Origin: Escherichia coli phage phiS | Length of the DNA: 64,000 nucleotides | Direction: 5' to 3' (one strand) | Sequence record: PP449093.1 | Position numbers and translations under genes: made by a program | Part shown: in pieces, positions 36,706 through 64,000 of the stretch | Layout: every line of letters begins with the position of its first letter | Numbering within the stretch: position 1 is the stretch's first letter | The notes under the pieces: model-generated | What the model saw: only the letters and a program-made list of their open reading frames with translations | Database searches by the model: none | Told to the model about the DNA's origin: nothing

Positions 36706-37362
36706 ATGAAATTGATTGCACTTTGTGGTAAAAAGCGAGTAGGAAAAGACACTGCCGCGTTAATCATTGATGGACATAGTTATCAACTGGCAGCACCGAT
36801 CAAAGAAATATTGTGCGAATGTCAACCAGACTTAGGTCTGACTTATCTTGACTTTGACGGGTTAGGGCGTGACAGAGAATCCGATCTAGGTATTGATACC
36901 TATACCGCGCATAAGTGGTTTATTCAGTGTCTTCTTATGCTAGATTCGAAGTATGGTGGTAGTTCCTTTACTTGTGATCGTCTGGCTGAGATTTACAAGG
37001 TCGTTAATGAGATTGGCGAAAAACATAATAACGTCTGGTCTATTCGTCTCATGTTAACCACTCTCGGTACTGATATAATGGTTAACTTGATCAATCCGCT
37101 TTATTGGTGTAATCTCTTCGTGGATGAGTTTATGAAGCGCAAAAATGAAGAAGGTTATTTTGTAGTGGTTGATGTGCGTCAGCCTATTGAAATTGCTCTC
37201 GTGCGTGCTATGGGTGCTAAGGTGTTGCATATTCAGCGTGATACTGGTATTGTATCGACTCACTCCACCGAAAAAGGAATTTTGCCTATTGACGGTGAAA
37301 CCATTATCATAAATAATGGTACATTAGAAGAATTTGAAAGCGCGATTCTCGCGAACATTTAA
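36706..37362 (+). CDS. 1: deoxynucleoside monophosphate kinase gp1
   Basis: P-loop LCGKKRVGKDT near the N-terminus; T4 gene 1 position. Confidence 0.8.
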   Translation: MKLIALCGKKRVGKDTAALIIDGHSYQLAAPIKEILCECQPDLGLTYLDFDGLGRDRESDLGIDTYTAHKWFIQCLLMLDSKYGGSSFTCDRLAEIYKVVNEIGEKHNNVWSIRLMLTTLGTDIMVNLINPLYWCNLFVDEFMKRKNEEGYFVVVDVRQPIEIALVRAMGAKVLHIQRDTGIVSTHSTEKGILPIDGETIIINNGTLEEFESAILANI

Positions 37363-37388
37363 TAAAAAGTTATCAACAAGTAGGAGAT

Positions 37389-37655
37389 GTGAATATGTCC
37401 AATCAGCATGAACAAATGATTAATGTCCTGAAAGTACGTCTGTTTGACACTCAAGAAAAGGCCGCATTCTTAGAAGGCCAACTGAAAGATCGTGAGCGTG
37501 TATTGATGGAACTGGTACGCATTCTGGGTATTCAGCCAGACGAAAACGGCACTGTTTCCCTTGATGCTATTGTCGAAGAAGTGAAAGCACTTCTCCCTAA
37601 AGACGAAGCCGCAGAAGAAGCAGAAGAGGAAGTAGAACTGATCAAGGAGGCTTGA
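37389..37655 (+). CDS. 57A: tail fiber assembly chaperone gp57A-like
   Basis: 88-aa helical, acidic-tailed ORF between gene 1 and 57B; position and size. Confidence 0.5.
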   Translation: MNMSNQHEQMINVLKVRLFDTQEKAAFLEGQLKDRERVLMELVRILGIQPDENGTVSLDAIVEEVKALLPKDEAAEEAEEEVELIKEA

Positions 37656-45249: not shown

Positions 45250-45666
45250 ATGGAATTTAAAGCAATTCAAATCATGAAAGGTGAGCATAAAGGTACTATT
45301 ATTGGTGGACACTTCGCGCCTATGATTCTGGTATCCGAACCGAAAGCACTGATCGGCGCTAAAGTAATTGTTAGTAAAACTTTCGCAGAAGACCATGTGA
45401 TCACCGCAGAAGACGTCGATTCTCTGGCACTGCACACAACTAGCTTCCGTCCTGTTTATATCGAAGATAGTATTGGTATGAAGCGAGGATCTCAACATCT
45501 CAACGTCAATGTAATGAATCGCGACCTTCTTCTGGATGCGGTAGAGAATCCGGATAAATATCCATCACTAACTGTACGAATTTCAGGCTATGCGGTCAGA
45601 TTTAATGCACTTACGCCGGAACAACAACGAGATATCATTACCCGAACCTTCACGGAAGCAATGTAA
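45250..45666 (+). CDS. grcA: autonomous glycyl radical cofactor (GrcA/YfiD-like)
   Basis: C-terminus GSQHLNVNVMNRDLLLDAVENPDKYPSLTVRISGYAVRFNALTPEQQRDIITRTFTEAM carries the glycyl radical motif RxSGYAVRF and closely resembles recalled E. coli GrcA. Confidence 0.85.
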   Translation: MEFKAIQIMKGEHKGTIIGGHFAPMILVSEPKALIGAKVIVSKTFAEDHVITAEDVDSLALHTTSFRPVYIEDSIGMKRGSQHLNVNVMNRDLLLDAVENPDKYPSLTVRISGYAVRFNALTPEQQRDIITRTFTEAM

Positions 45667-45672
45667 TTTTTT

Positions 45673-45705
45673 AAGCCAATCCTAAAGGGTTGGCTTTTTC
45701 TTTTT
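45673..45705 (+). terminator. Rho-independent terminator after grcA
   Basis: Hairpin AGCCAATCCTAAAGGGTTGGCT followed by TTTTTCTTTTT. Confidence 0.6.
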
Positions 45706-45749
45706 ATTGTGATATGATGACAAAACTTAACAACATGGAGATTGACATT

Positions 45750-46277
45750 ATGATTAAAAGATATTGTGACGACCATCCGGTGGAAGAGTGGAAAGTGATT
45801 GAGGATCTTTATCCGTTAACTCATTTTGAGATTAGCTCTCATGGTCGAGTTAGAAATTCTATTACCGGAAAATATTTGTCTATTGTTGAAACGAAAGATT
45901 ATACTAAAGTTTCTTTTAAGCATCGTCCTAGTAAAACGCATAAAACTTTAAACATGCATAGGATGATGGCTGTTGCGTTTATTCCTAATCCTAATAATTA
46001 TCGTGTAGTTAACCATAAGGATGGAAACAAGAGAAATTTTGACCTGTACAATCTTGAATGGACTACAGACACGCGAAATCTTGCTCATGCAAAGGAAGAA
46101 GGGTTAAACAAAAATTGGGGAGAGAACCACGGAAACGCAAAACTAACAGATAAGCAAGTGAAAGAGATTTTAGCTTCTCCACATATGAAAGGTGTAGAGC
46201 TTGCAAGAAAATATAATGTTACCCCTGCCACAATTAGCCGTGTCCGAAATGGTAAAGTCCGTAACGTCAAATACTAA
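45750..46277 (+). CDS. HNH homing endonuclease (NUMOD4-type N-terminus, C-terminal HTH)
   Basis: NUMOD4-like EEWKVIEDLYPLTHFEISSHGRVRN; HNH-like VNHKDGNKRNFDLYNLEWTT; C-terminal HTH ARKYNVTPATISRVRNG. Confidence 0.7.
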   Translation: MIKRYCDDHPVEEWKVIEDLYPLTHFEISSHGRVRNSITGKYLSIVETKDYTKVSFKHRPSKTHKTLNMHRMMAVAFIPNPNNYRVVNHKDGNKRNFDLYNLEWTTDTRNLAHAKEEGLNKNWGENHGNAKLTDKQVKEILASPHMKGVELARKYNVTPATISRVRNGKVRNVKY

Positions 46278-57720: not shown

Positions 57721-58490
57721 TGAAGAAAGCATTAGGTTTAATTCCCTATACTGGCAATAAGGAAAAGTTATTGCCAGGTGTTAGTAAGTATTTCCCTAAG
57801 CACTACAACCGCTTTGTTGATGCCTTTTGTGGTGGTTTGAGCGTGTCTCTGTATGTTGAAGGTGATGTGCTGGCTAATGACTATGATCACCGTTTAATTG
57901 ACGCTTACAAGGCCATTGATGCGTGTCCTGAACCAGTTTCTACGATCAAGCGGATTATTGCCGAGAATGGTTTGTCTCGCGATGATAAAGATGCTTACAT
58001 GGCATTCCGTAAGAAGTATAACGAGAATCCAGATCCGCTATCTCTGTTTGTTCTGATCCAGCATAGTTTTAGCAACATTAACCGCCATAACCGGAAGGGC
58101 GAATTTAATGCTAACTTTGGTCGCCGGACTTTTAACGAAAATGCGGTAGAGCGTGTCCTGAATTTTAAAGAAGAAAACAAAGACGGTCGAATCAATTTTA
58201 CTTCTGGACGATATGACGAGATCGAGATCTTGCCGGATGATTTCGTTTTCCTTGATCCGCCATATTGGATCACGTCGGCAGAATATAATAAGTTCTGGAG
58301 TGAAGAAGAAGAGATTAAATTCTACATGTGGATAGAATCATTAATGTCTAGCGGTGCTAAGTTTGGATTAAGCAATGTTACTCACCACAAAGGGAAAGTT
58401 AACAACCATCTGCTCGATTTTATCGAACGTAATGATGTTTCTGTTGTTGAACTGGATAAAACATATTGTTTAGATCGTAGCGGGGGGTAA
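57720..58490 (+). CDS. dam: DNA adenine methyltransferase (Dam)
   Basis: Blocks YTGNKEKLLP, NRFVDAFCGGLSVSL and DPPY closely resemble recalled T4 Dam. Confidence 0.85.
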   Translation: MKKALGLIPYTGNKEKLLPGVSKYFPKHYNRFVDAFCGGLSVSLYVEGDVLANDYDHRLIDAYKAIDACPEPVSTIKRIIAENGLSRDDKDAYMAFRKKYNENPDPLSLFVLIQHSFSNINRHNRKGEFNANFGRRTFNENAVERVLNFKEENKDGRINFTSGRYDEIEILPDDFVFLDPPYWITSAEYNKFWSEEEEIKFYMWIESLMSSGAKFGLSNVTHHKGKVNNHLLDFIERNDVSVVELDKTYCLDRSGG

Positions 58491-58513
58491 AAAATCCGAT
58501 ACTAAGGAAGTTT

Positions 58514-59269
58514 ATGTCACCAATGTTAAAATATGAGGTTATACACAAGACTCCAGAAGATAAACGTTTATATGATTTATATCATTCACGGTTTTATTAT
58601 GATGATGGTTTTCTTAGGTGGAAGATTCACCCGCACCGAAAAGGTGTTATAAACGGATTAGCTGGAAGTGATACCCCCGATGGGTATCGTATTGTATGGA
58701 CTGGCGAGCGATACGAACGTATGCACCGTGTTATCTATCATATGTTTCATGGTCATTGTCCTAAGTATATAGATCATAAAGACCGAGATCGTTATAATAG
58801 CCGCATTGAAAACCTTAGAGAGACGACAAGCAAACAAAATAATATGAATATGAGCAAGACCAAATGCAAAACATATTCGAAGTATAAAGGTGTGTCGTTT
58901 AATAAGAATAAAGGTTATTGGACTGGTGCAATAATGTTGGATGGGAAGTCGATACATTTAGGATATTTTCCCTCTGAGATCGGTGCGGCGTATGCATATA
59001 ATCTTGCAGCGTTGAAACATTTTGGTGATAGGTCTTGTATAAACGAGATTGATGATATAGAATATGCAAAGTCTGAATATGACAAGAAGCTCCAAAAAGC
59101 AGCAAGTTCCCGTCATAGATACGTTTACAAAGTACCAAAACAAGGTAATTACGGTGCTAAAGTTCGCGGTGTGTATATAGGAAGATTTGACACAGAATAT
59201 GATGCGGCACGGGCAGTTAATGCCTATATTATTGAAAATGAACTTGATATAGAACTGAATGAGGTATAA
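58514..59269 (+). CDS. HNH homing endonuclease with two AP2-like domains
   Basis: HNH motif IDHKDRDRYNSRIENLRETTSKQN; AP2-like YKGVSF...GYWTGAIMLDGKSIHLGYF...AAYAYNLAALKHFG and a second AP2-like repeat. Confidence 0.75.
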   Translation: MSPMLKYEVIHKTPEDKRLYDLYHSRFYYDDGFLRWKIHPHRKGVINGLAGSDTPDGYRIVWTGERYERMHRVIYHMFHGHCPKYIDHKDRDRYNSRIENLRETTSKQNNMNMSKTKCKTYSKYKGVSFNKNKGYWTGAIMLDGKSIHLGYFPSEIGAAYAYNLAALKHFGDRSCINEIDDIEYAKSEYDKKLQKAASSRHRYVYKVPKQGNYGAKVRGVYIGRFDTEYDAARAVNAYIIENELDIELNEV

Positions 59270-59270
59270 T

Positions 59271-59552
59271 ATGGTAGAAATTTTTGGTTTTGAAGGTTAC
59301 AACTGTAAGTATTGCCAGAATGCAAAGCGCCTTTGTGAAGCGCGTAAGATCCCTTACATCTACATTCCGGTTAATGATGGTGTGGACGAAAACGGTCGTC
59401 CGGTAAAGATTGATTCTATCATTGCCGACATTCAGGATCGCGCAGGGGTAGAAGTTATTGCCACCATGCCGCAGATTTTCTATAATGGTGATTATATTGG
59501 TGGTTTTGATGAGTTCCGTTCCTTTGTAGTCAAAAACAAGATTAATGGTTAA
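59271..59552 (+). CDS. nrdC: glutaredoxin-like thioredoxin NrdC
   Basis: MVEIFGFEGYNCKYCQNAKRL...MPQIFYNGDYIGGFDEF resembles recalled T4 NrdC including the CxxC redox motif. Confidence 0.85.
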   Translation: MVEIFGFEGYNCKYCQNAKRLCEARKIPYIYIPVNDGVDENGRPVKIDSIIADIQDRAGVEVIATMPQIFYNGDYIGGFDEFRSFVVKNKING

Positions 59553-59576
59553 ATACCTTCTTTGGAGGGTGAATTT

Positions 59577-60050
59577 ATGTTACTGACTGCTAAGAGTGCT
59601 AAAGAGTACAAACAAGAACTATTCGAAAAACAGGGGGGCATTTGCCCCCTTTGTCAAATGCCACTTTTTGAGGATATGAGCAAAAACCATCTTGACCACG
59701 ACCACGATCTAGATGGGAAAGGGCAAGGCCGAGTAAGGGGATTGCTTCATTCGTGTTGCAACCGCCTAGAAGGATCGTTGACCGGAGACTTTAAACGGTT
59801 TGGTGTTGGTGCTTTAGGTGCTGACTTCGTTGTTTGGGCTACAAACTATGTTAATTACATCAAAGGAGACTACACCAACAATCATTTACATCCTCAATAT
59901 GCTGTTGATAAAGTAAAACGATTTTCACGCTTGACACGCGCGGAGATGGTTGCTATTATGGACGCAGAAGGTTTCGATTACTGCGACGCTGATACACGAG
60001 AAGAGATCACGAAGAAGTATAAGAAACAATTTATACAAAGATTAAGATAG
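59577..60050 (+). CDS. 49: endonuclease VII (Holliday junction resolvase, gene 49)
   Basis: MLLTAKSAKEYKQELFEKQGGICPLCQ...NHLDHDHDLDG...VRGLLHSCCN resembles recalled T4 endo VII. Confidence 0.85.
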   Translation: MLLTAKSAKEYKQELFEKQGGICPLCQMPLFEDMSKNHLDHDHDLDGKGQGRVRGLLHSCCNRLEGSLTGDFKRFGVGALGADFVVWATNYVNYIKGDYTNNHLHPQYAVDKVKRFSRLTRAEMVAIMDAEGFDYCDADTREEITKKYKKQFIQRLR

Positions 60051-60053
60051 TAG

Positions 60054-60082
60054 TTGACAATAAGAAATGGGAGTAGTAAAAT
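60054..60082 (+). promoter_or_regulatory. early promoter cassette copy 11 (TTGACA-17-TAAAAT) with GGGAGTA/TACTCCC palindrome
   Basis: TTGACAATAAGAAATGGGAGTAGTAAAATACTCCC then SD AGGAGAATCAACA ATG. Confidence 0.6.
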
Positions 60083-60113
60083 ACTCCCATCTAATCAAGA
60101 AGGAGAATCAACA

Positions 60114-60386
60114 ATGCGTAAGATGTTTAAATCCGGTGTGGCCTATGTTTTTAAATCTGAGCAAGCACATAAAGACTTCTTAGATGATGAATACGAAGGG
60201 GTGAAAGATACCTACGAAGTCATCAAGAATGGGTTTACTGTTCTTAAAGTGTCACCTGTTGGTTATGTAAGTGAAATCTCAGTTGATGGGAAAACATACA
60301 CCGCTAAAGACTTTGATCCGCGTTGGGAATTTATGCTGCTTCCGTGTGAGCGCATTCTGTTCCGTGCTGTTCAATTAGTGAAATGA
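60114..60386 (+). CDS. hypothetical protein, one-module member of paralog family C
   Basis: MRKMFKSGVAYVFKSEQAHKDF...NGFTVLKV...VDGKTYTAKDF...W; module shared with the next two ORFs. Confidence 0.55.
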   Translation: MRKMFKSGVAYVFKSEQAHKDFLDDEYEGVKDTYEVIKNGFTVLKVSPVGYVSEISVDGKTYTAKDFDPRWEFMLLPCERILFRAVQLVK

Positions 60387-60400
60387 TAGAGGATTATATT

Positions 60401-60961
60401 ATGGTACAGAAAACGTATAAATTGTATCCGGCTAAGTCTTCAAATGATGCTGTTTTTGAACGAGGTCGTTATTACACTTTCCGTAATGCTGAGTCCGCAG
60501 AGGAATTTGTTAAACGCTATCCACAACATAACAAGTTCCTGTATGGTGTGCTTCACAAGGGCTTTAAAGTTCTGACTGTTAATGTTATGGGTAAAGTGTA
60601 TTTGGTAGAAACTCATGATTATGAGGGCGCGTCAATCATGATTGATGCCAGCGAGCGCAAATACTTTAAGCGTATCACTAAAAAGCAGTTTGAAGAAATG
60701 AAGCCAGTTAAGAAAGAAGAATCGCTGGAAGATCTGATTAACTTGTTTGCGAAGTCTTCTTTGGTATCATTGACGCTGGAAGATTTTAGCGTTGATAATC
60801 AGCTATACTTTAAAAATGCCGATGACCTGAAAGATTTTTTGATTGAGAATAAACCTAAGCTAGAAACCTATATCAAAGGTGAGATTAAGCGCATGGAACA
60901 TCAAGCAAAATATAGCGCAGATAAAGTAGCTGAACTGAAAGAGATCCAAAAGTCACTTTAA
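60401..60961 (+). CDS. hypothetical protein, family C (one N-terminal module plus coiled-coil tail)
   Basis: Preceded by GAGGATTATATTATG; N-terminal module and C-terminal tail LKDFLIENKPKLETYIKGEIKRMEHQ paralogous to 61025-62203. Confidence 0.55.
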   Translation: MVQKTYKLYPAKSSNDAVFERGRYYTFRNAESAEEFVKRYPQHNKFLYGVLHKGFKVLTVNVMGKVYLVETHDYEGASIMIDASERKYFKRITKKQFEEMKPVKKEESLEDLINLFAKSSLVSLTLEDFSVDNQLYFKNADDLKDFLIENKPKLETYIKGEIKRMEHQAKYSADKVAELKEIQKSL

Positions 60962-60964
60962 CGC

Positions 60965-60993
60965 TTGACATGATGAAACGGGAGTAGTAAGAT
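60965..60993 (+). promoter_or_regulatory. early promoter cassette copy 12 (TTGACA-17-TAAGAT) with GGGAGTA/TACTCCC palindrome
   Basis: Near-identical to copy 11. Confidence 0.6.
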
Positions 60994-61024
60994 ACTCCCA
61001 TCTAAACAACGAGAGGATTATATT

Positions 61025-62203
61025 ATGGCTCAATTCTTTGAAGGGCATTACTATGCATTCCGTGAAGGCGGTAAAGATGAGTTTCTAGACTTTTCTCGCT
61101 ATTCAATTACTCTGACCGATGATTCGCGCCGTGGTCATATTCGGGTTGCTGAAATCGTAGAAAACGGTTTTAAAGTATTAGAAAAAGATGACCACGGTCA
61201 TGTTGTTACTATTGAAGCTGGAGATGTAGTTTATTCCTCTGAGGATATTGTGGACTATTGGGCTACTATGTTTATGCACAATGAGCGTAAATTCTTTAAA
61301 CGTATCTCAAAAGAGGCATACGAAGCAATGAACAAGAAAGAAGATGTAATGCCGACTTACTTTGAAAAAGGTAAGTGCTATTCGTTTACCCCAGAAGGTT
61401 TGCAAGAATTTAAGCGATTCTGGGGAGAGCATGATCCAGATCACAAAGAAGCCATGAAACTTGTTGATTTTGTTGAATATGGCTTTTTAGTTGAAGAAGA
61501 ATTTCATGGGTCGGCTACCATGATCACCGCGAAAGGTGAAACCGTTAAGGCGGATCGTTTTTGTGATCAATGGGCGTGTGTGATTGACGGTGGCGAATTT
61601 GAATACTTCGCTGAAATCACGAAACAACAATTTCATTCTATGCAAGCGGCTGGTCAGAGATTTAAAGTAGGTGAACGCTACAAGCCAAATCAGCATAATT
61701 TGCCATATTGGTTTACCGCTGAAACTGTATCAAGTCATGTTGTTGAAATTGTTCAAAAGCTGGGACAAGGATTTAAGGTAACTAAAGTAGATGATTATGG
61801 AAGTGTTGACGCGGTTGAAATTGATGGTGTAGAATATACACCGAAATCTTTCGGGCTTTGCTGGTATCACCTGATCAGCAATGATGAACGTTATTACTTT
61901 GTTGAACTGCCATCTGAACCGGAAGAAGCACTAGAAGATCATGATCATCTGTCTGAACTGGTTAAACTGTTTGGTGATCTGCCGGATGGTGTAGGCGTGG
62001 CGGTAATGGGTGAAGGTGCTGTTATCCGAAACCTGAAAGACCTTAAAAAGTTCTTGATTGACATGCTGCCTAAACTTGATGATAATCTCGATAAAGATAT
62101 TCAGAATCGCAAAGAAATTGTTAAAGATACTGAAAAAGAGATCGAAGAGATTCGAGCAATTCGCCAGAAGGTGAAAGCAGTAAAGAAAAAAGTTAGTGCT
62201 TGA
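61025..62203 (+). CDS. hypothetical protein, family C (three tandem internal modules plus coiled-coil tail)
   Basis: 392-aa ORF with three approximately 100-aa repeats (Y-x-F ... GF-x-VL ... ERKFFKRI-like ends) and C-terminal LKDLKKFLIDMLPKLDDNLDKD... coiled coil. Confidence 0.6.
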   Translation: MAQFFEGHYYAFREGGKDEFLDFSRYSITLTDDSRRGHIRVAEIVENGFKVLEKDDHGHVVTIEAGDVVYSSEDIVDYWATMFMHNERKFFKRISKEAYEAMNKKEDVMPTYFEKGKCYSFTPEGLQEFKRFWGEHDPDHKEAMKLVDFVEYGFLVEEEFHGSATMITAKGETVKADRFCDQWACVIDGGEFEYFAEITKQQFHSMQAAGQRFKVGERYKPNQHNLPYWFTAETVSSHVVEIVQKLGQGFKVTKVDDYGSVDAVEIDGVEYTPKSFGLCWYHLISNDERYYFVELPSEPEEALEDHDHLSELVKLFGDLPDGVGVAVMGEGAVIRNLKDLKKFLIDMLPKLDDNLDKDIQNRKEIVKDTEKEIEEIRAIRQKVKAVKKKVSA

Positions 62204-62227
62204 CATGCGAAGGGAGTATGCTATAAT
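62200..62227 (+). promoter_or_regulatory. early promoter cassette copy 13 (TTGACA-16-TATAAT) with GGGAGTAT/ATACTCCC palindrome
   Basis: CTTGACATGCGAAGGGAGTATGCTATAATACTCCC then GAGAGGATTATATTATG. Confidence 0.6.
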
Positions 62228-62257
62228 ACTCCCACTTAACAACGAGAGGATTATATT

Positions 62258-62752
62258 ATGTGGGTACAAGATGTTTGGTATACTGTAACTAAAGAAAACC
62301 TTGACGCATTCAGCGACCAATCTTGCGCTAATAGCTCAATTGCTGGTATACTTACTGATGTGTTTGGTGGTGTAGATAAAATTCGTTTTAAAGTTGTTGT
62401 TAGTTCGCTGGGTCAGGTGAAAGATCTTTACACCGAAGATAAAGACCTTGATCTTGAACTTCGTCTTCGTATTGATAATGCAAGTCTAGGTTATTGGTTT
62501 GAAGATAACGAATATGAATACTTCACACCAGCAATTAAAGTTTTTGCGACTAAACTGGAAGCTGTACTGAATCTACGACCAATTAATGTTGACGGCTACA
62601 TTATCAAAAATATTCAGGATTGGGAGTTGTATCTAGATCAGGTTATCCGAAATAGTAAGCAGGAAGCCGCTAATAAGAAGCGACAAGAGATTAAACAGCT
62701 TAAAGCTGAACTGGAATCGGCGGAAAAAGAATTAGCAGAACTGGTAAAATAA
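62258..62752 (+). CDS. hypothetical protein with C-terminal coiled coil (164 aa)
   Basis: C-terminus QEAANKKRQEIKQLKAELESAEKELAELVK; similar tail architecture to the two preceding genes. Confidence 0.55.
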   Translation: MWVQDVWYTVTKENLDAFSDQSCANSSIAGILTDVFGGVDKIRFKVVVSSLGQVKDLYTEDKDLDLELRLRIDNASLGYWFEDNEYEYFTPAIKVFATKLEAVLNLRPINVDGYIIKNIQDWELYLDQVIRNSKQEAANKKRQEIKQLKAELESAEKELAELVK

Positions 62753-62761
62753 CTATCAACG

Positions 62762-62786
62762 AGCGGGAGAAATCCCGCTTTTTCAT
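62762..62786 (+). terminator. hairpin/terminator-like element upstream of nrdD
   Basis: Hairpin AGCGGGAGAAATCCCGCT followed by TTTTTCA. Confidence 0.45.
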
Positions 62787-62796
62787 AGGTGATACA

Positions 62797-63666
62797 ATGG
62801 AAAAACTAATCAAAGACATTACAGAGATCGCAACGGGTAAAGAAAACGAAGTAAGCAAAGAGAACGCGAACAAAGACGCGCGAACATTCCCGACACGTCG
62901 AGATCTGATTGCTGGTGCTGTGTCTAAACAGATTGCTAAAACCGTGTTACCTGAGCACATCTATAAAGCGCATGTAGACGGTGATATTCATTATCATGAT
63001 ATGGATTATGCACCCGCTATGCCGTTTACTAACTGCTGTCTTGTTAATCTCAAAGACATGTTAGAGAATGGTTTTAAATTGGGTAGCGCACAAATCGAAA
63101 GTCCGAAATCAATCGGCGTTGCTTGTGCTGTAACCGCTCAAATTATCGCACAGGTGGCAAGTCATCAATATGGCGGGACCACAATTGCAAACATCGACCA
63201 GGTGTTAGCACCGTATGTTAAGAAAACATATCATAAACACCTTGCTGATGCCGAAACCTACGGAATCAAAGCTGATACTCTCTATGCACAAGAGAAAACA
63301 GAAAAAGAAACGTTAGACGGATATCAGGCGTTGGAATATGAGATCAACACTTTGTTCTCCACCAACGGTCAAACGCCTTTTGTGACTTTAACCTTTGGTA
63401 TGGGTACTAGCTGGGAAGAAAAACTGATTCAGAAAGCGATCCTGAATGTTCGAACTAAAGGTTTAGGTAAAGACGGTATAACTCCGGTGTTTCCTAAGCT
63501 GGTGATGTTCTTAGAAGAAGGATTAAACCTTAAACCGGAAGATCCGAACTACGACATTAAGCAACTTGCATTGGAATGTTCTAGTAAGCGTCTTTACCCT
63601 GATTATATCTCTGCGAAGAATAACCGTAGTATCACTGGATCTAGTGTTCCGGTTAGCCCGATGGGT
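62797..63666 (+). CDS. nrdD: anaerobic ribonucleoside-triphosphate reductase NrdD, exon 1 (reading frame hits a stop at 63673-63675 inside the intron)
   Basis: Blocks FPTRRDLIAGAVSKQIAK, PFTNCCLVNLKDMLENGFKLG, VASHQYGGTT and GSSVPVSPMG match recalled T4 NrdD; ORF breaks after PMG where a group-I-intron-like sequence begins. Confidence 0.8.
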
Positions 63667-64000
63667 AAACTTTAAACAGCTCATCTAAAATCTGCCTAAA
63701 CGGGGGAACTCTCTAGAAGACAATCCCGTGCTAAACATAGCGATCATATTCTCTTTACGCCAATGTGTATAAGAGGATATATTATGGAACTTAGAAAAAT
63801 TCGTGATACCGAATATATGGTATCGAAAGATGGACGGGTGTTTTCTCCTAAAGGTAAACAGTTGAGCACCTGGATAGAAAACAATACCGGATATACATTA
63901 GTAAGGGTAAGGAGAGACAAGAAACCTTTATGTTTGCGTGTTCATGTTATTGTGGCTGAATGCTGGATTCCAAATCCTAACGGCTATCGATACGTGAAAC
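63667..64000 (+). mobile_element. group I intron in nrdD (5' part; continues beyond window) carrying an HNH endonuclease ORF
   Basis: Sequence GCCTAAACGGGGGAACTCTCTAGAAGACAATCCCGTGCTAAA resembles the conserved 5' core I recall from T4 td/nrdD group I introns; the exact 5' splice site is not determined. Confidence 0.6.
63783..64000 (+). CDS. intron-encoded HNH homing endonuclease (I-TevIII-like), 5' part
   Basis: ORF after AAGAGGATATATTATG; NUMOD4-like N-terminus MELRKIRDTEYMVSKDGRVFSPKG; truncated by the window end. Confidence 0.6.

What the first reader, a model, noticed from the sequence alone, without database searches (positions are those of the whole stretch)
63667..64000. nrdD interrupted by a group I intron carrying an HNH endonuclease gene
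The NrdD reading frame stops right after GSSVPVSPMG, where I recall T4 NrdD continuing. The following sequence contains a block (CTAAACGGGGGAACTCTCTAGAAGACAATCCCGTGCTAAA) resembling the conserved core of T4 group I introns. An HNH/NUMOD4 ORF with its own SD starts 107 nt downstream. The 3' exon lies outside the window.
Basis: partly seen in the sequence, partly recalled or inferred. Interest (0 to 1): 0.5.

Follow-up and report, generated by a model that had tools for sequence, protein, structure and literature searches.

The report
Mobile group I intron in nrdD

Summary

- **Source:** the window end comes from an RB49-like coliphage, 98.2% identical to phage JSE.
- **Insertion point:** about 60 related genomes have an uninterrupted nrdD. 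Their similarity to the window stops exactly at 63666/63667 (…ATGGGT|AAACTT…), one codon before the finger-loop cysteine.
- **Full element in JSE:** the insertion is 760 nt, ends in G, and its removal restores the reading frame.
- **Intron evidence in the window:** a covariance model built from the 5' halves of eight related introns, with JSE left out, hits 63659-63735 at 90 bits (E about 7e-17). It is the only credible hit in the window.
- **Fold:** ORF-trimmed cores of nine relatives fold into P1-P9.2 including the P3/P7 pseudoknot. 97% of cells are paired and 38 of 68 pairs show compensatory changes. JSE keeps 67 of 68 pairs.
- **Rfam:** an ORF-less intron at the same site in another phage passes Rfam's group I threshold.
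- **Endonuclease:** the ORF from 63784 is an I-HmuI-type HNH endonuclease gene in the P6a loop, and a hairpin covers its Shine-Dalgarno sequence.
- **Correction:** this is not the T4 nrdD intron. That one sits about 110 codons upstream and carries a different endonuclease.
- **Limits:** the 3' half and exon 2 lie outside the window, and splicing is inferred, not shown.

Interest is low.

The parts
62797..63666 (+). nrdD exon 1 (codons 1-290, ending ...SPMG)
   Evidence: Pfam NRDD 2.4e-76, profile positions 1-250 of 562. It is collinear with RB49 NrdD residues 1-290.
63667..64000 (+). 5' 334 nt of the group I intron. It runs off the window; the full length is 760 nt in phage JSE.
   Evidence: The break in similarity to intron-less relatives falls at 63666/63667. 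The stretch is 98.5% identical to JSE intron nt 1-334, with 5 mismatches.
63660..63666 (+). P1, exon strand GAUGGGU. The last U forms the U.G pair at the 5' splice site.
   Evidence: It pairs with 63679-63685. Helix 1 of the counted structure is 93.7% paired, and position -7 covaries with the guide sequence (C-G, U-G and G-C all occur). Model R1 aligns it as P1.
63679..63685 (+). Internal guide sequence GCUCAUC (P1, intron strand)
   Evidence: It is nearly identical to the guide of the T4 sunY intron, GCUCAUG.
63691..63696 (+). P3, 5' strand UCUGCC. The partner GGUAGA lies beyond the window.
   Evidence: In the nine-sequence alignment P3 is 100% paired, and 5 of its 6 pairs show compensatory changes. 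The partner is seen in JSE.
63700..63729 (+). P4 (63700-63705 with 63724-63729) enclosing P5 (63710-63712 with 63718-63720)
   Evidence: All cells are paired. Compensatory changes occur in 2 of 6 P4 pairs and 2 of 3 P5 pairs.
63730..63747 (+). P6 5' strand (GC, 63730-63731) and P6a 5' strand (CAUAGCGAUCAU, 63736-63747). The endonuclease gene sits in the loop closed by P6a.
   Evidence: In JSE, CAUAGCGG pairs with CCGCUAUG just before AAAUGCC. All 6 counted P6a pairs are compensatory across relatives. The window has A at 63743 where JSE has G, and its partner base is not visible.
63746..63780 (+). Hairpin that base-pairs the endonuclease gene's Shine-Dalgarno sequence
   Evidence: Minimum free energy -14.1 kcal/mol, z = -2.7, with 0 of 200 shuffles folding as well; the SD lies in the 3' arm. 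The T4 intron endonuclease genes have the same arrangement (PMC2988022).
63771..63777 (+). Shine-Dalgarno sequence AAGAGGA of the endonuclease gene
   Evidence: Read directly from the sequence; it lies 6 nt before the ATG at 63784.
63784..64000 (+). HNH homing endonuclease gene, codons 1-72 of 166 (I-HmuI type). It is cut by the window end just before the catalytic His.
   Evidence: The 72 residues are all identical to the JSE protein, so the 4 nucleotide differences are synonymous. PHROG HNH families E = 7e-15. The JSE protein matches I-HmuI (PDB 1U3E) at E = 4e-9 over residues 8-163.

Best explanation
The window ends inside a mobile group I intron of subgroup IA. It belongs to the same ribozyme lineage as the phage T4 td and sunY introns. 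It is inserted in nrdD between the Gly290 and Cys291 codons; Cys291 is the finger-loop radical cysteine.

How it most likely works (all four steps are inferred):
1. In the pre-mRNA, the last seven exon bases (GAUGGGU) pair with the intron's guide sequence (GCUCAUC) to form P1.
2. The core (P3-P8, P4-P6 and P7 with P7.1/P7.2) folds, a free guanosine attacks after the U of the U.G pair, and the terminal G then directs exon ligation. This yields mRNA for a normal 620-aa NrdD.
3. The loop of P6a carries a 166-codon gene for an I-HmuI-type HNH endonuclease. A hairpin covers its ribosome-binding site, which should limit translation. That matters because the last roughly 11 codons of the gene are also the P6a 3' strand, J6/7 and the P7 5' strand of the ribozyme.
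4. In mixed infections the endonuclease should cut or nick intron-less nrdD alleles near the insertion site. Recombinational repair would then copy the intron, together with adjacent exon sequence, into the recipient.

Shown here: the precise insertion, the sequence and structural homology, the covariation, the intact core in JSE, the endonuclease homology, the hairpin, and the exon-2 substitution cluster.

Inferred: splicing, endonuclease activity, homing, and that the unseen 3' part of this phage's intron matches JSE.
For: Precise insertion:
- The JSE insertion is 760 nt relative to RB49, bounded by ...GGU| and ...AAUG|. Its removal restores SPMG|CRSF.
- Only JSE, among about 60 closely related genomes, carries it.

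The window itself:
- Model R1, built from eight relatives without JSE, gives 90.1 bits, E = 7e-17, at 63659-63735.

Fold:
- RNAalifold on nine ORF-trimmed cores recovers P1, P3, P4, P5, P6/6a, P7.1, P7.2, P8, P9, P9.1 and P9.2.
- With P7 added as a pseudoknot, 97.1% of cells pair, against 35-42% when partners are slid. 38 of 68 pairs have compensatory changes, and 0 of 500 shuffles reach the observed values.
- JSE forms 67 of 68 pairs.

Rfam RF00028:
- T4 sunY scores 105.3 bits.
- The ORF-less intron at the same site in phage 18-1-2 scores 79.8 bits, above the gathering score of 50.
- td scores 42.5 bits and JSE 27.4 bits; in both, an ORF splits the core.

Same insertion site in other phage groups:
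- rV5-like, phi92-like and Felixounavirus phages and Vibrio phages carry an intron at the same site with homologous endonuclease genes (48-54% aa identity to JSE's); the Avunavirus 18-1-2 copy at this site has no ORF.

Endonuclease:
- I-HmuI (PDB 1U3E) E = 4e-9, near full length.
- Pfam I-HmuI_NUMOD-like 32.3 bits, above the cut-off of 27.
- The His and Asn residues of the HNH motif are conserved in the alignment.

Regulation:
- The hairpin over the Shine-Dalgarno sequence has z = -2.7. This matches the T4 paradigm, as does the ORF extending into the core (PMC2988022).

Homing footprint:
- JSE differs from RB49 at 8 positions in the first 102 nt of exon 2. It differs at 9 in the next roughly 890 nt and at 13 in the 870 nt of exon 1.
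- The first 12 nt of exon 2 (TGTAGAAGTTTC) equal those of the rV5-like and phi92-like intron hosts.
Against: - Only 334 of about 760 nt are in the window. P3', P6', P7, P8, P9, the terminal G and exon 2 are seen only in JSE.
- Rfam finds nothing in the window, and JSE scores below the gathering threshold.
- Pfam HNH_3 is just under its cut-off (22.1 against 24.8 bits) and NUMOD4 is sub-threshold.
- No T4-type late promoter (TATAAATA) lies inside the intron, so the late-transcript route that frees the ribosome-binding site in T4 is not evident here.
- The window has A at 63743 where JSE has a G paired in P6a; the partner base cannot be seen.
- No splicing or cleavage data exist for this element in the literature I could search.
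Confidence: 0.88

Rival explanations
1. nrdD is split by a free-standing endonuclease gene and is not spliced. The two halves would be translated separately and reassemble, as reported for nrdA and mobE of Aeromonas phage Aeh1.
For: - GenBank annotates JSE, and most relatives, as two nrdD CDSs plus a 'Homing endonuclease', with no intron feature.
- Papers describe the arrangement only as a split gene (PMC4837284).
- A review of T4-related genomes mentions a putative intron for JSE only in gene 43, not in nrdD (PMC2993671).
- The Aeh1 precedent is cited in PMC3653736.
Against: - A complete ribozyme core supported by covariation flanks the ORF.
- The insertion is bounded by U| and G| with a 7-bp P1.
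- An ORF-less version sits at the same site.
- Exon 2 has no start codon or Shine-Dalgarno sequence at the junction. The annotated JSE 'second nrdD' CDS starts 3 nt inside the intron, at the terminal AUG.
- The split would separate the radical cysteine from the Met-Gly of its own finger loop.
Confidence: 0.04
2. The intron is a decayed relic that no longer splices, which would leave nrdD a pseudogene in this phage. NrdD is needed only for anaerobic growth.
For: - Splicing is untested.
- The T4 nrdB intron endonuclease is a known relic (PMC2988022), so decay does occur in this family.
- The window differs from JSE at one P6a position (63743).
Against: - JSE keeps 67 of 68 consensus pairs and all invariant core stretches, including AAAUGCC, GAUAU.GUCU and J3/4 AAA.
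- Both exons are 99.7% identical in protein to RB49 NrdD, with no frameshifts.
- The four nucleotide differences in the window's endonuclease fragment are all synonymous.
Confidence: 0.05
3. Beyond the window end, this phage's element differs from JSE, for example by truncation or rearrangement, or because the sequence is a contig end. The JSE-based reconstruction would then not apply.
For: - The window stops inside the ORF.
- The phage is not JSE: 98.2% identity, with 12 differences in exon 1.
- No exact copy was found in IMG/VR, in JGI metagenome contigs, or in the protein-position index.
Against: The 334 shared nucleotides differ at only 5 positions and contain no indels. Nothing suggests a breakpoint.
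Confidence: 0.03

Closest known systems
Phage JSE nrdD insertion (EU863408 / NC_012740, record positions 36708-37467)
   Same: It is the same element. The 334 nt shared with the window are 98.5% identical, the insertion site is the same, and the first 72 residues of the endonuclease are identical.
   Different: There are five nucleotide differences, one of them in P6a. The host genome differs by about 2%. The record annotates two nrdD CDSs and a 'Homing endonuclease', not an intron.
T4 nrdD (sunY) intron with I-TevII
   Same: - The host gene is the same.
- The ribozyme is homologous: 71% identity over the trimmed core, with the same helices.
- There is no P2.
- The guide sequence is almost the same (GCUCAUG against GCUCAUC), and it pairs with a similar exon hexamer (AUGAGU against AUGGGU).
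   Different: - The site differs: RB49 residues 180/181 against 290/291, about 110 codons apart.
- The endonuclease is the GIY-YIG I-TevII, placed in the P9.1 loop, not an HNH enzyme in P6a.
T4/T6 td intron with I-TevI
   Same: - The ribozyme is homologous (66% identity).
- The ORF sits in the P6a loop, and its 3' end runs into the core.
- The ribosome-binding site is covered by a hairpin.
   Different: - The host gene differs (thymidylate synthase).
- td has a P2.
- The endonuclease is GIY-YIG.
- The I-TevI stop codon lies in J6/7, whereas here the stop codon UAG lies in P7.
nrdD introns at the same cysteine codon in rV5-like, phi92-like, Avunavirus, Felixounavirus and Vibrio phages
   Same: - The insertion site is identical (...AUGGGU|...|UGU).
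- The ribozymes are 69-78% identical.
- The I-HmuI-type endonuclease genes in P6a are homologous, and most end in ...EMPND, encoded by J6/7-P7.
   Different: - The endonucleases are only 48-54% identical to the JSE type.
- The Avunavirus copy has no ORF.
- The last guide base follows the host exon: G with exon C(-7), and C with exon G(-7).
I-HmuI (Bacillus phage SPO1 DNA polymerase intron; PDB 1U3E)
   Same: The architecture matches over nearly the full length: an N-terminal beta domain, the HNH motif and a C-terminal NUMOD-like helix-turn-helix (E = 4e-9).
   Different: Sequence identity is low, and the host gene and intron are different. I recall that I-HmuI is a nickase; whether this enzyme nicks or cuts both strands is unknown.

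Membership tests
Group I intron (Rfam RF00028; subgroup IA, T-even phage type) | P1 helix between the end of the 5' exon and an internal guide sequence, with a U.G pair at the splice site | tested here: met
   GAUGGGU (63660-63666) pairs with GCUCAUC (63679-63685), giving 7 bp with a U.G pair at the junction.
Group I intron (Rfam RF00028; subgroup IA, T-even phage type) | Conserved core: P3-P8 and P4-P6 domains and P7, with the P3/P7 pseudoknot | tested here: met
   Met in full for JSE (67 of 68 consensus pairs). In the window only P3 5', P4, P5 and P6/P6a 5' are present, and they match.
Group I intron (Rfam RF00028; subgroup IA, T-even phage type) | Extra helices P7.1/P7.2 between P7 and P3', typical of subgroup IA | tested here: met
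   Helices 8-10. P7.1 has 4 of 5 pairs compensatory. These are seen in JSE, not in the window.
Group I intron (Rfam RF00028; subgroup IA, T-even phage type) | Terminal G at the 3' splice site, and removal restores the host reading frame | tested here: met
   JSE has ...AAUAAUG|UGUAGA. Removing the 760 nt gives SPMG|CRSF, collinear with RB49. This lies outside the window.
Group I intron (Rfam RF00028; subgroup IA, T-even phage type) | Score at or above Rfam's gathering threshold (50 bits) | tested here: inconclusive
   The window gives no hit and JSE gives 27.4 bits. The proven td intron also falls short (42.5 bits), while the ORF-less same-site homologue (79.8) and sunY (105.3) pass.
Group I intron (Rfam RF00028; subgroup IA, T-even phage type) | Guanosine-dependent self-splicing | not testable with these tools
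   This needs RT-PCR or an in vitro splicing assay.
T4 nrdD (sunY) intron / I-TevII element | Insertion at the sunY site of nrdD | tested here: not met
   The T4 intron lies between RB49-equivalent residues 180 and 181. This one lies between 290 and 291.
T4 nrdD (sunY) intron / I-TevII element | GIY-YIG endonuclease I-TevII encoded in the 3' (P9.1) region | tested here: not met
   Here the ORF is an HNH endonuclease gene in P6a.
HNH homing endonuclease, I-HmuI type | HNH catalytic motif (His general base; Asn residues) | tested here: met
   JSE has VKHKNDDKTINDASNLEWGTNSEN, which aligns with the I-HmuI motif. Pfam HNH_3 is slightly below its cut-off (22.1 against 24.8 bits). The window stops one codon before the His.
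HNH homing endonuclease, I-HmuI type | C-terminal I-HmuI NUMOD-like DNA-binding domain | tested here: met
   PF22083 scores 32.3 bits against a cut-off of 27, residues 115-159 of the JSE protein. This lies outside the window.
HNH homing endonuclease, I-HmuI type | N-terminal NUMOD4 motif | tested here: inconclusive
   PF07463 scores 15.6 bits (E = 0.019) on the window fragment, below the cut-off of 23.4. The region does align with the N-terminal domain of I-HmuI.
HNH homing endonuclease, I-HmuI type | Site-specific cleavage of the intron-less allele, leading to homing | not testable with these tools
   There is only an indirect footprint: 8 substitutions in the first 102 nt of JSE exon 2 against about 1% elsewhere.
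Gene split by a free-standing endonuclease gene (Aeh1 nrdA/mobE type) | No ribozyme around the endonuclease gene; the halves are translated separately | tested here: not met
   A complete group I core flanks the ORF. Exon 2 has no translation start of its own outside the intron.
Intein | In-frame insertion without stop codons, removed at the protein level | tested here: not met
   The frame hits TAA two codons after the junction, at 63673-63675.

The most novel reading that the evidence does not exclude
One ribozyme lineage occupies two different sites in nrdD.

- The 5' exon hexamers at the two sites are almost the same (AUGAGU at the T4 sunY site, AUGGGU at the cysteine site).
- Almost the same guide sequence reads both.
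- At the two sites the lineage carries unrelated endonuclease genes in different loops: GIY-YIG in P9.1 and HNH in P6a. It also exists with no ORF at the cysteine site.

This could be a natural record of an intron moving to a new site through guide-sequence pairing (reverse splicing), followed by independent endonuclease invasions. The alternative is simply shared ancestry plus endonuclease-driven spread. The homology and the matching guide and exon sequences are shown. The mechanism and the direction of movement are not.
Probability: 0.3. Interest if true: 0.45.

Novelty: new member of a known kind. Interest (0 to 1): 0.2.

Why it matters
Mostly for annotation.

- **Records to correct:** the public records of JSE, and of many rV5-like, phi92-like, Felixounavirus and Vibrio phages, list two 'nrdD' genes and a stray endonuclease gene. 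The evidence here says these are single nrdD genes interrupted by a self-splicing intron at the catalytic cysteine codon.
- **Rfam caveat:** Rfam's threshold misses such introns when an ORF splits the core. The proven td intron also scores below the cut-off.
- **Biology:** this is a further example of mobile introns targeting the most conserved codons of ribonucleotide reductase genes. It also shows a ribozyme scaffold shared among unrelated phage groups.

Nothing here challenges current understanding.

Tried and rejected
- **Rfam on the window:** permissive search on 58000-64000 and gathering-threshold search on all 64 kb. No group I hit, because only the 5' third of the ribozyme is present.
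- **Rfam on JSE:** only a sub-threshold hit to the 3' half. I judged this non-decisive after the td control also failed.
- **Search for the source contig, to see the 3' half and exon 2:**
  - exact 47-mer and 41-mer scans of IMG/VR: nothing;
  - a 41-mer scan of JGI metagenome contigs: nothing;
  - an exact-product look-up of the exon-1 ORF: nothing;
  - a protein-guided IMG/VR scan: only the 54%-identical Felixounavirus-type endonuclease genes.
- **T4-type late promoter inside the intron:** none. The eight TATAAATA matches in the window are all elsewhere and number no more than chance predicts. The sigma-70 scan gave only weak 9-of-12 matches in the intron.
- **Original JSE genome paper (PubMed 19339031):** not held in the library. 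I could not check whether its authors already called this an intron.
- **Support for the residue number Cys290:** literature searches found none. PMC4493059 confirms only that the T4 NrdD finger loop holds the critical Cys and a conserved Met. The number 290 rests on my memory plus the offset computed.
- **Rejected readings:** an intein, because of the in-frame stop codon, and identity with the T4 nrdD intron, because the site and the endonuclease differ.

Full report
**What is at the coordinates**

The last 1.2 kb of the window holds an ORF (62797-63675) whose product matches the N-terminal half of anaerobic ribonucleotide reductase. Pfam NRDD gives E = 2.4e-76 over profile positions 1-250 of 562. 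It reads ...GSSVPVSPMG, then K, L and a TAA.

A megablast of 62700-64000 against phage genomes shows an RB49-like coliphage (genus Krischvirus). About 60 related genomes match at 95-99%, but only up to query position 967, which is window 63666. Only phage JSE, deposited twice, matches the whole query, at 98.2%.

A three-way alignment of the window, JSE and RB49 shows that JSE carries 760 extra nucleotides. They lie between ...CCGATGGGT and TGT..., and their removal restores ...SPMG|CRSFLGVW.... The window holds the first 334 nt of the insertion, with 5 differences from JSE and no indels.

**Is it a group I intron?**

Rfam finds nothing in the window. In JSE it finds only a sub-threshold match to the 3' half: RF00028, 27.4 bits, E = 1.3e-4, against a gathering score of 50. 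I ran controls to see what that means:

| Intron | RF00028 bits | ORF position |
|---|---|---|
| T4 nrdD (sunY) | 105.3 | outside the core |
| T6 td (proven self-splicing) | 42.5 | in P6a, splits the core |
| JSE nrdD | 27.4 | in P6a, splits the core |
| Phage 18-1-2, ORF-less, 252 nt, same nrdD site | 79.8 | none |

A low score is therefore what an ORF-split core is expected to give.

I then extracted related introns:
- at the same nrdD site: rV5-like phage WM, phi92-like phage arall, Felixounavirus allfine, Avunavirus 18-1-2 and Vibrio phage F91;
- at the T4 sunY site: T4 and Mosigvirus KAW3E185;
- in td: T6.

I trimmed out the ORF loops and aligned the cores. RNAalifold recovered P1, the long-range P3, P4, P5, P6/P6a, P7.1, P7.2, P8, P9, P9.1 and P9.2. 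With P7 added as the pseudoknot partner of P3:
- 97.1% of cells pair, against 35-42% when the 3' partners are slid by 1-3 columns;
- 38 of 68 pairs show compensatory changes;
- no shuffle in 500 reaches any observed measure.

JSE forms 67 of the 68 pairs, and the single exception is an alignment gap in P8.

For the window itself I built a covariance model from the 5' halves (P1 to P6) of the eight relatives, leaving out JSE and the window. It hits 63659-63735 at 90.1 bits, E = 7e-17. The only other match in the 64 kb is at chance level (14.3 bits, E = 1.1).

**Anatomy in window coordinates**

- **P1:** exon GAUGGGU (63660-63666) with guide GCUCAUC (63679-63685), and a U.G pair at the splice site.
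- **P2:** absent.
- **P3 5' strand:** 63691-63696.
- **P4:** 63700-63705 with 63724-63729.
- **P5:** 63710-63712 with 63718-63720.
- **P6 and P6a 5' strands:** 63730-63747.
- **Endonuclease gene leader and gene:** follow from there.

**The ORF**

The ATG is at 63784, six nucleotides after AAGAGGA (63771-63777).

- The 72 codons in the window are identical in protein to JSE, so the four nucleotide differences are synonymous.
- They match PHROG HNH endonuclease families at E = 7e-15.
- The full 166-aa JSE protein aligns with I-HmuI (PDB 1U3E) over residues 8-163, E = 4e-9.
- It passes Pfam I-HmuI_NUMOD-like (32.3 bits against 27). It falls just under HNH_3 (22.1 against 24.8), and NUMOD4 is sub-threshold.
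- The His and Asn residues of the HNH motif are conserved among the five same-site homologues. These are 48-54% identical to the JSE protein and, apart from the closely related WM and arall pair (91%), 40-52% identical to one another.

The gene sits in the loop closed by P6a, as I-TevI does in td. Its last codons (...YEFRYEMPND) double as P6a 3', J6/7 and P7 5', and the stop codon UAG lies in P7.

A hairpin at 63746-63780 pairs the whole Shine-Dalgarno sequence (-14.1 kcal/mol, z = -2.7). Both features match what is described for the T4 intron endonucleases. There, limiting translation protects folding of the core (PMC2988022). I found no T4-type late promoter in the intron.

**Not the T4 nrdD intron**

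A tblastn of RB49 NrdD against T4 places the T4 intron between residues 180 and 181. Its length came out as 1033 nt. That is about 110 codons upstream of this site. T4 carries the GIY-YIG I-TevII in the P9.1 region.

The site here is immediately before Cys291 (RB49 numbering), which by the offset is Cys290 in T4. PMC4493059 confirms that the T4 NrdD finger loop carries the critical cysteine and a conserved methionine. The residue number itself is from my memory.

The ribozymes are nonetheless homologous: JSE is 71% identical to sunY, 66% to td, and 77-78% to the rV5-like and phi92-like same-site introns. The guide sequences at the two nrdD sites are nearly identical, and they pair with similar exon hexamers, AUGAGU and AUGGGU. 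Within the same-site group the last guide base tracks the host exon: G-C in JSE and Felixounavirus, and C-G in the rV5-like, phi92-like and Avunavirus introns.

**Signs of mobility**

- The element is in 1 of about 60 Krischvirus genomes in the collection.
- It is absent by exact-word scan from IMG/VR and from JGI metagenome contigs.
- JSE differs from RB49 at 8 positions in the first 102 nt of exon 2. It differs at 9 in the following roughly 890 nt and at 13 in the 870 nt of exon 1.
- The first 12 nt of JSE exon 2 (TGTAGAAGTTTC, against RB49 TGTCGTAGCTTC; all changes synonymous) equal those of the rV5-like and phi92-like intron hosts.

[quoted passage not shown] It lies outside the window.

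**Prior knowledge**

- The JSE record annotates two nrdD CDSs and a 'Homing endonuclease'.
- A paper on Felix O1-like phages notes the split nrdD, and that its endonuclease is 53% identical to that of JSE (PMC4837284).
- A review of T4-related genomes mentions a putative JSE intron only in gene 43 (PMC2993671).
- I could not read the original JSE paper.

The element is therefore sequenced and its split-gene appearance is published. The group I intron reading is not in the records or papers I could search, but it is an ordinary member of a very well-studied family.

**Verdict**

The corrections are:
- the site and the endonuclease differ from the T4 nrdD intron;
- the ORF starts at 63784;
- the NUMOD4 label is only sub-threshold.

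Splicing, endonuclease activity and the unseen 3' half are inferred from a 98.5%-identical relative. Interest is low (0.2).

Noticed in passing
window 45690-46277 (+): A 195-aa ORF is 40% identical to the intron endonuclease over residues 9-105. It looks like a second, apparently free-standing, HNH endonuclease gene. The ORF just upstream (45250-45666) ends ...RISGYAVRF..., which by eye looks like a glycyl-radical motif.
   Followed up: partly
window 62200-62227 (+): A perfect sigma-70 promoter (TTGACA, 16 nt, TG-TATAAT; 12 of 12 matches) lies ahead of the 164-aa ORF 62258-62752, the gene before nrdD.
   Followed up: no
window about 62763-62785 (+): A G+C-rich hairpin followed by a T run (AGCGGGAGAAATCCCGCTTTTT) ends only about 12 nt before the nrdD start. 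nrdD may therefore depend on read-through. I saw this by eye; the terminator scan did not list it. Some related records annotate a terminator within the matched nrdD-upstream region; I did not check whether it is at this position.
   Followed up: no
window 60054-62203 (+): Three consecutive ORFs (110, 192 and 392 aa; the 392-aa one corresponds to the gene annotated frd.2 in JSE and RB49) contain repeated modules of the form ...GF(K/L)V...(K/E)YF..I(T/S)K..(F/Y)..M. This suggests a tandemly duplicated domain family. Seen by eye.
   Followed up: no
L008 (Escherichia phage 18-1-2), about 2450-2815: Its nrdD has a second interruption near RB49-equivalent residues 457-465, in addition to the ORF-less intron at the cysteine codon. 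Three nrdD CDS pieces are annotated.
   Followed up: no
L001 and JSE record EU863408: Both the 3' core of the intron and the endonuclease protein each match a second place in the JSE genome. This may be the gene 43 intron mentioned in PMC2993671, but I did not look at the position. The window holds no second copy of the ribozyme.
   Followed up: no
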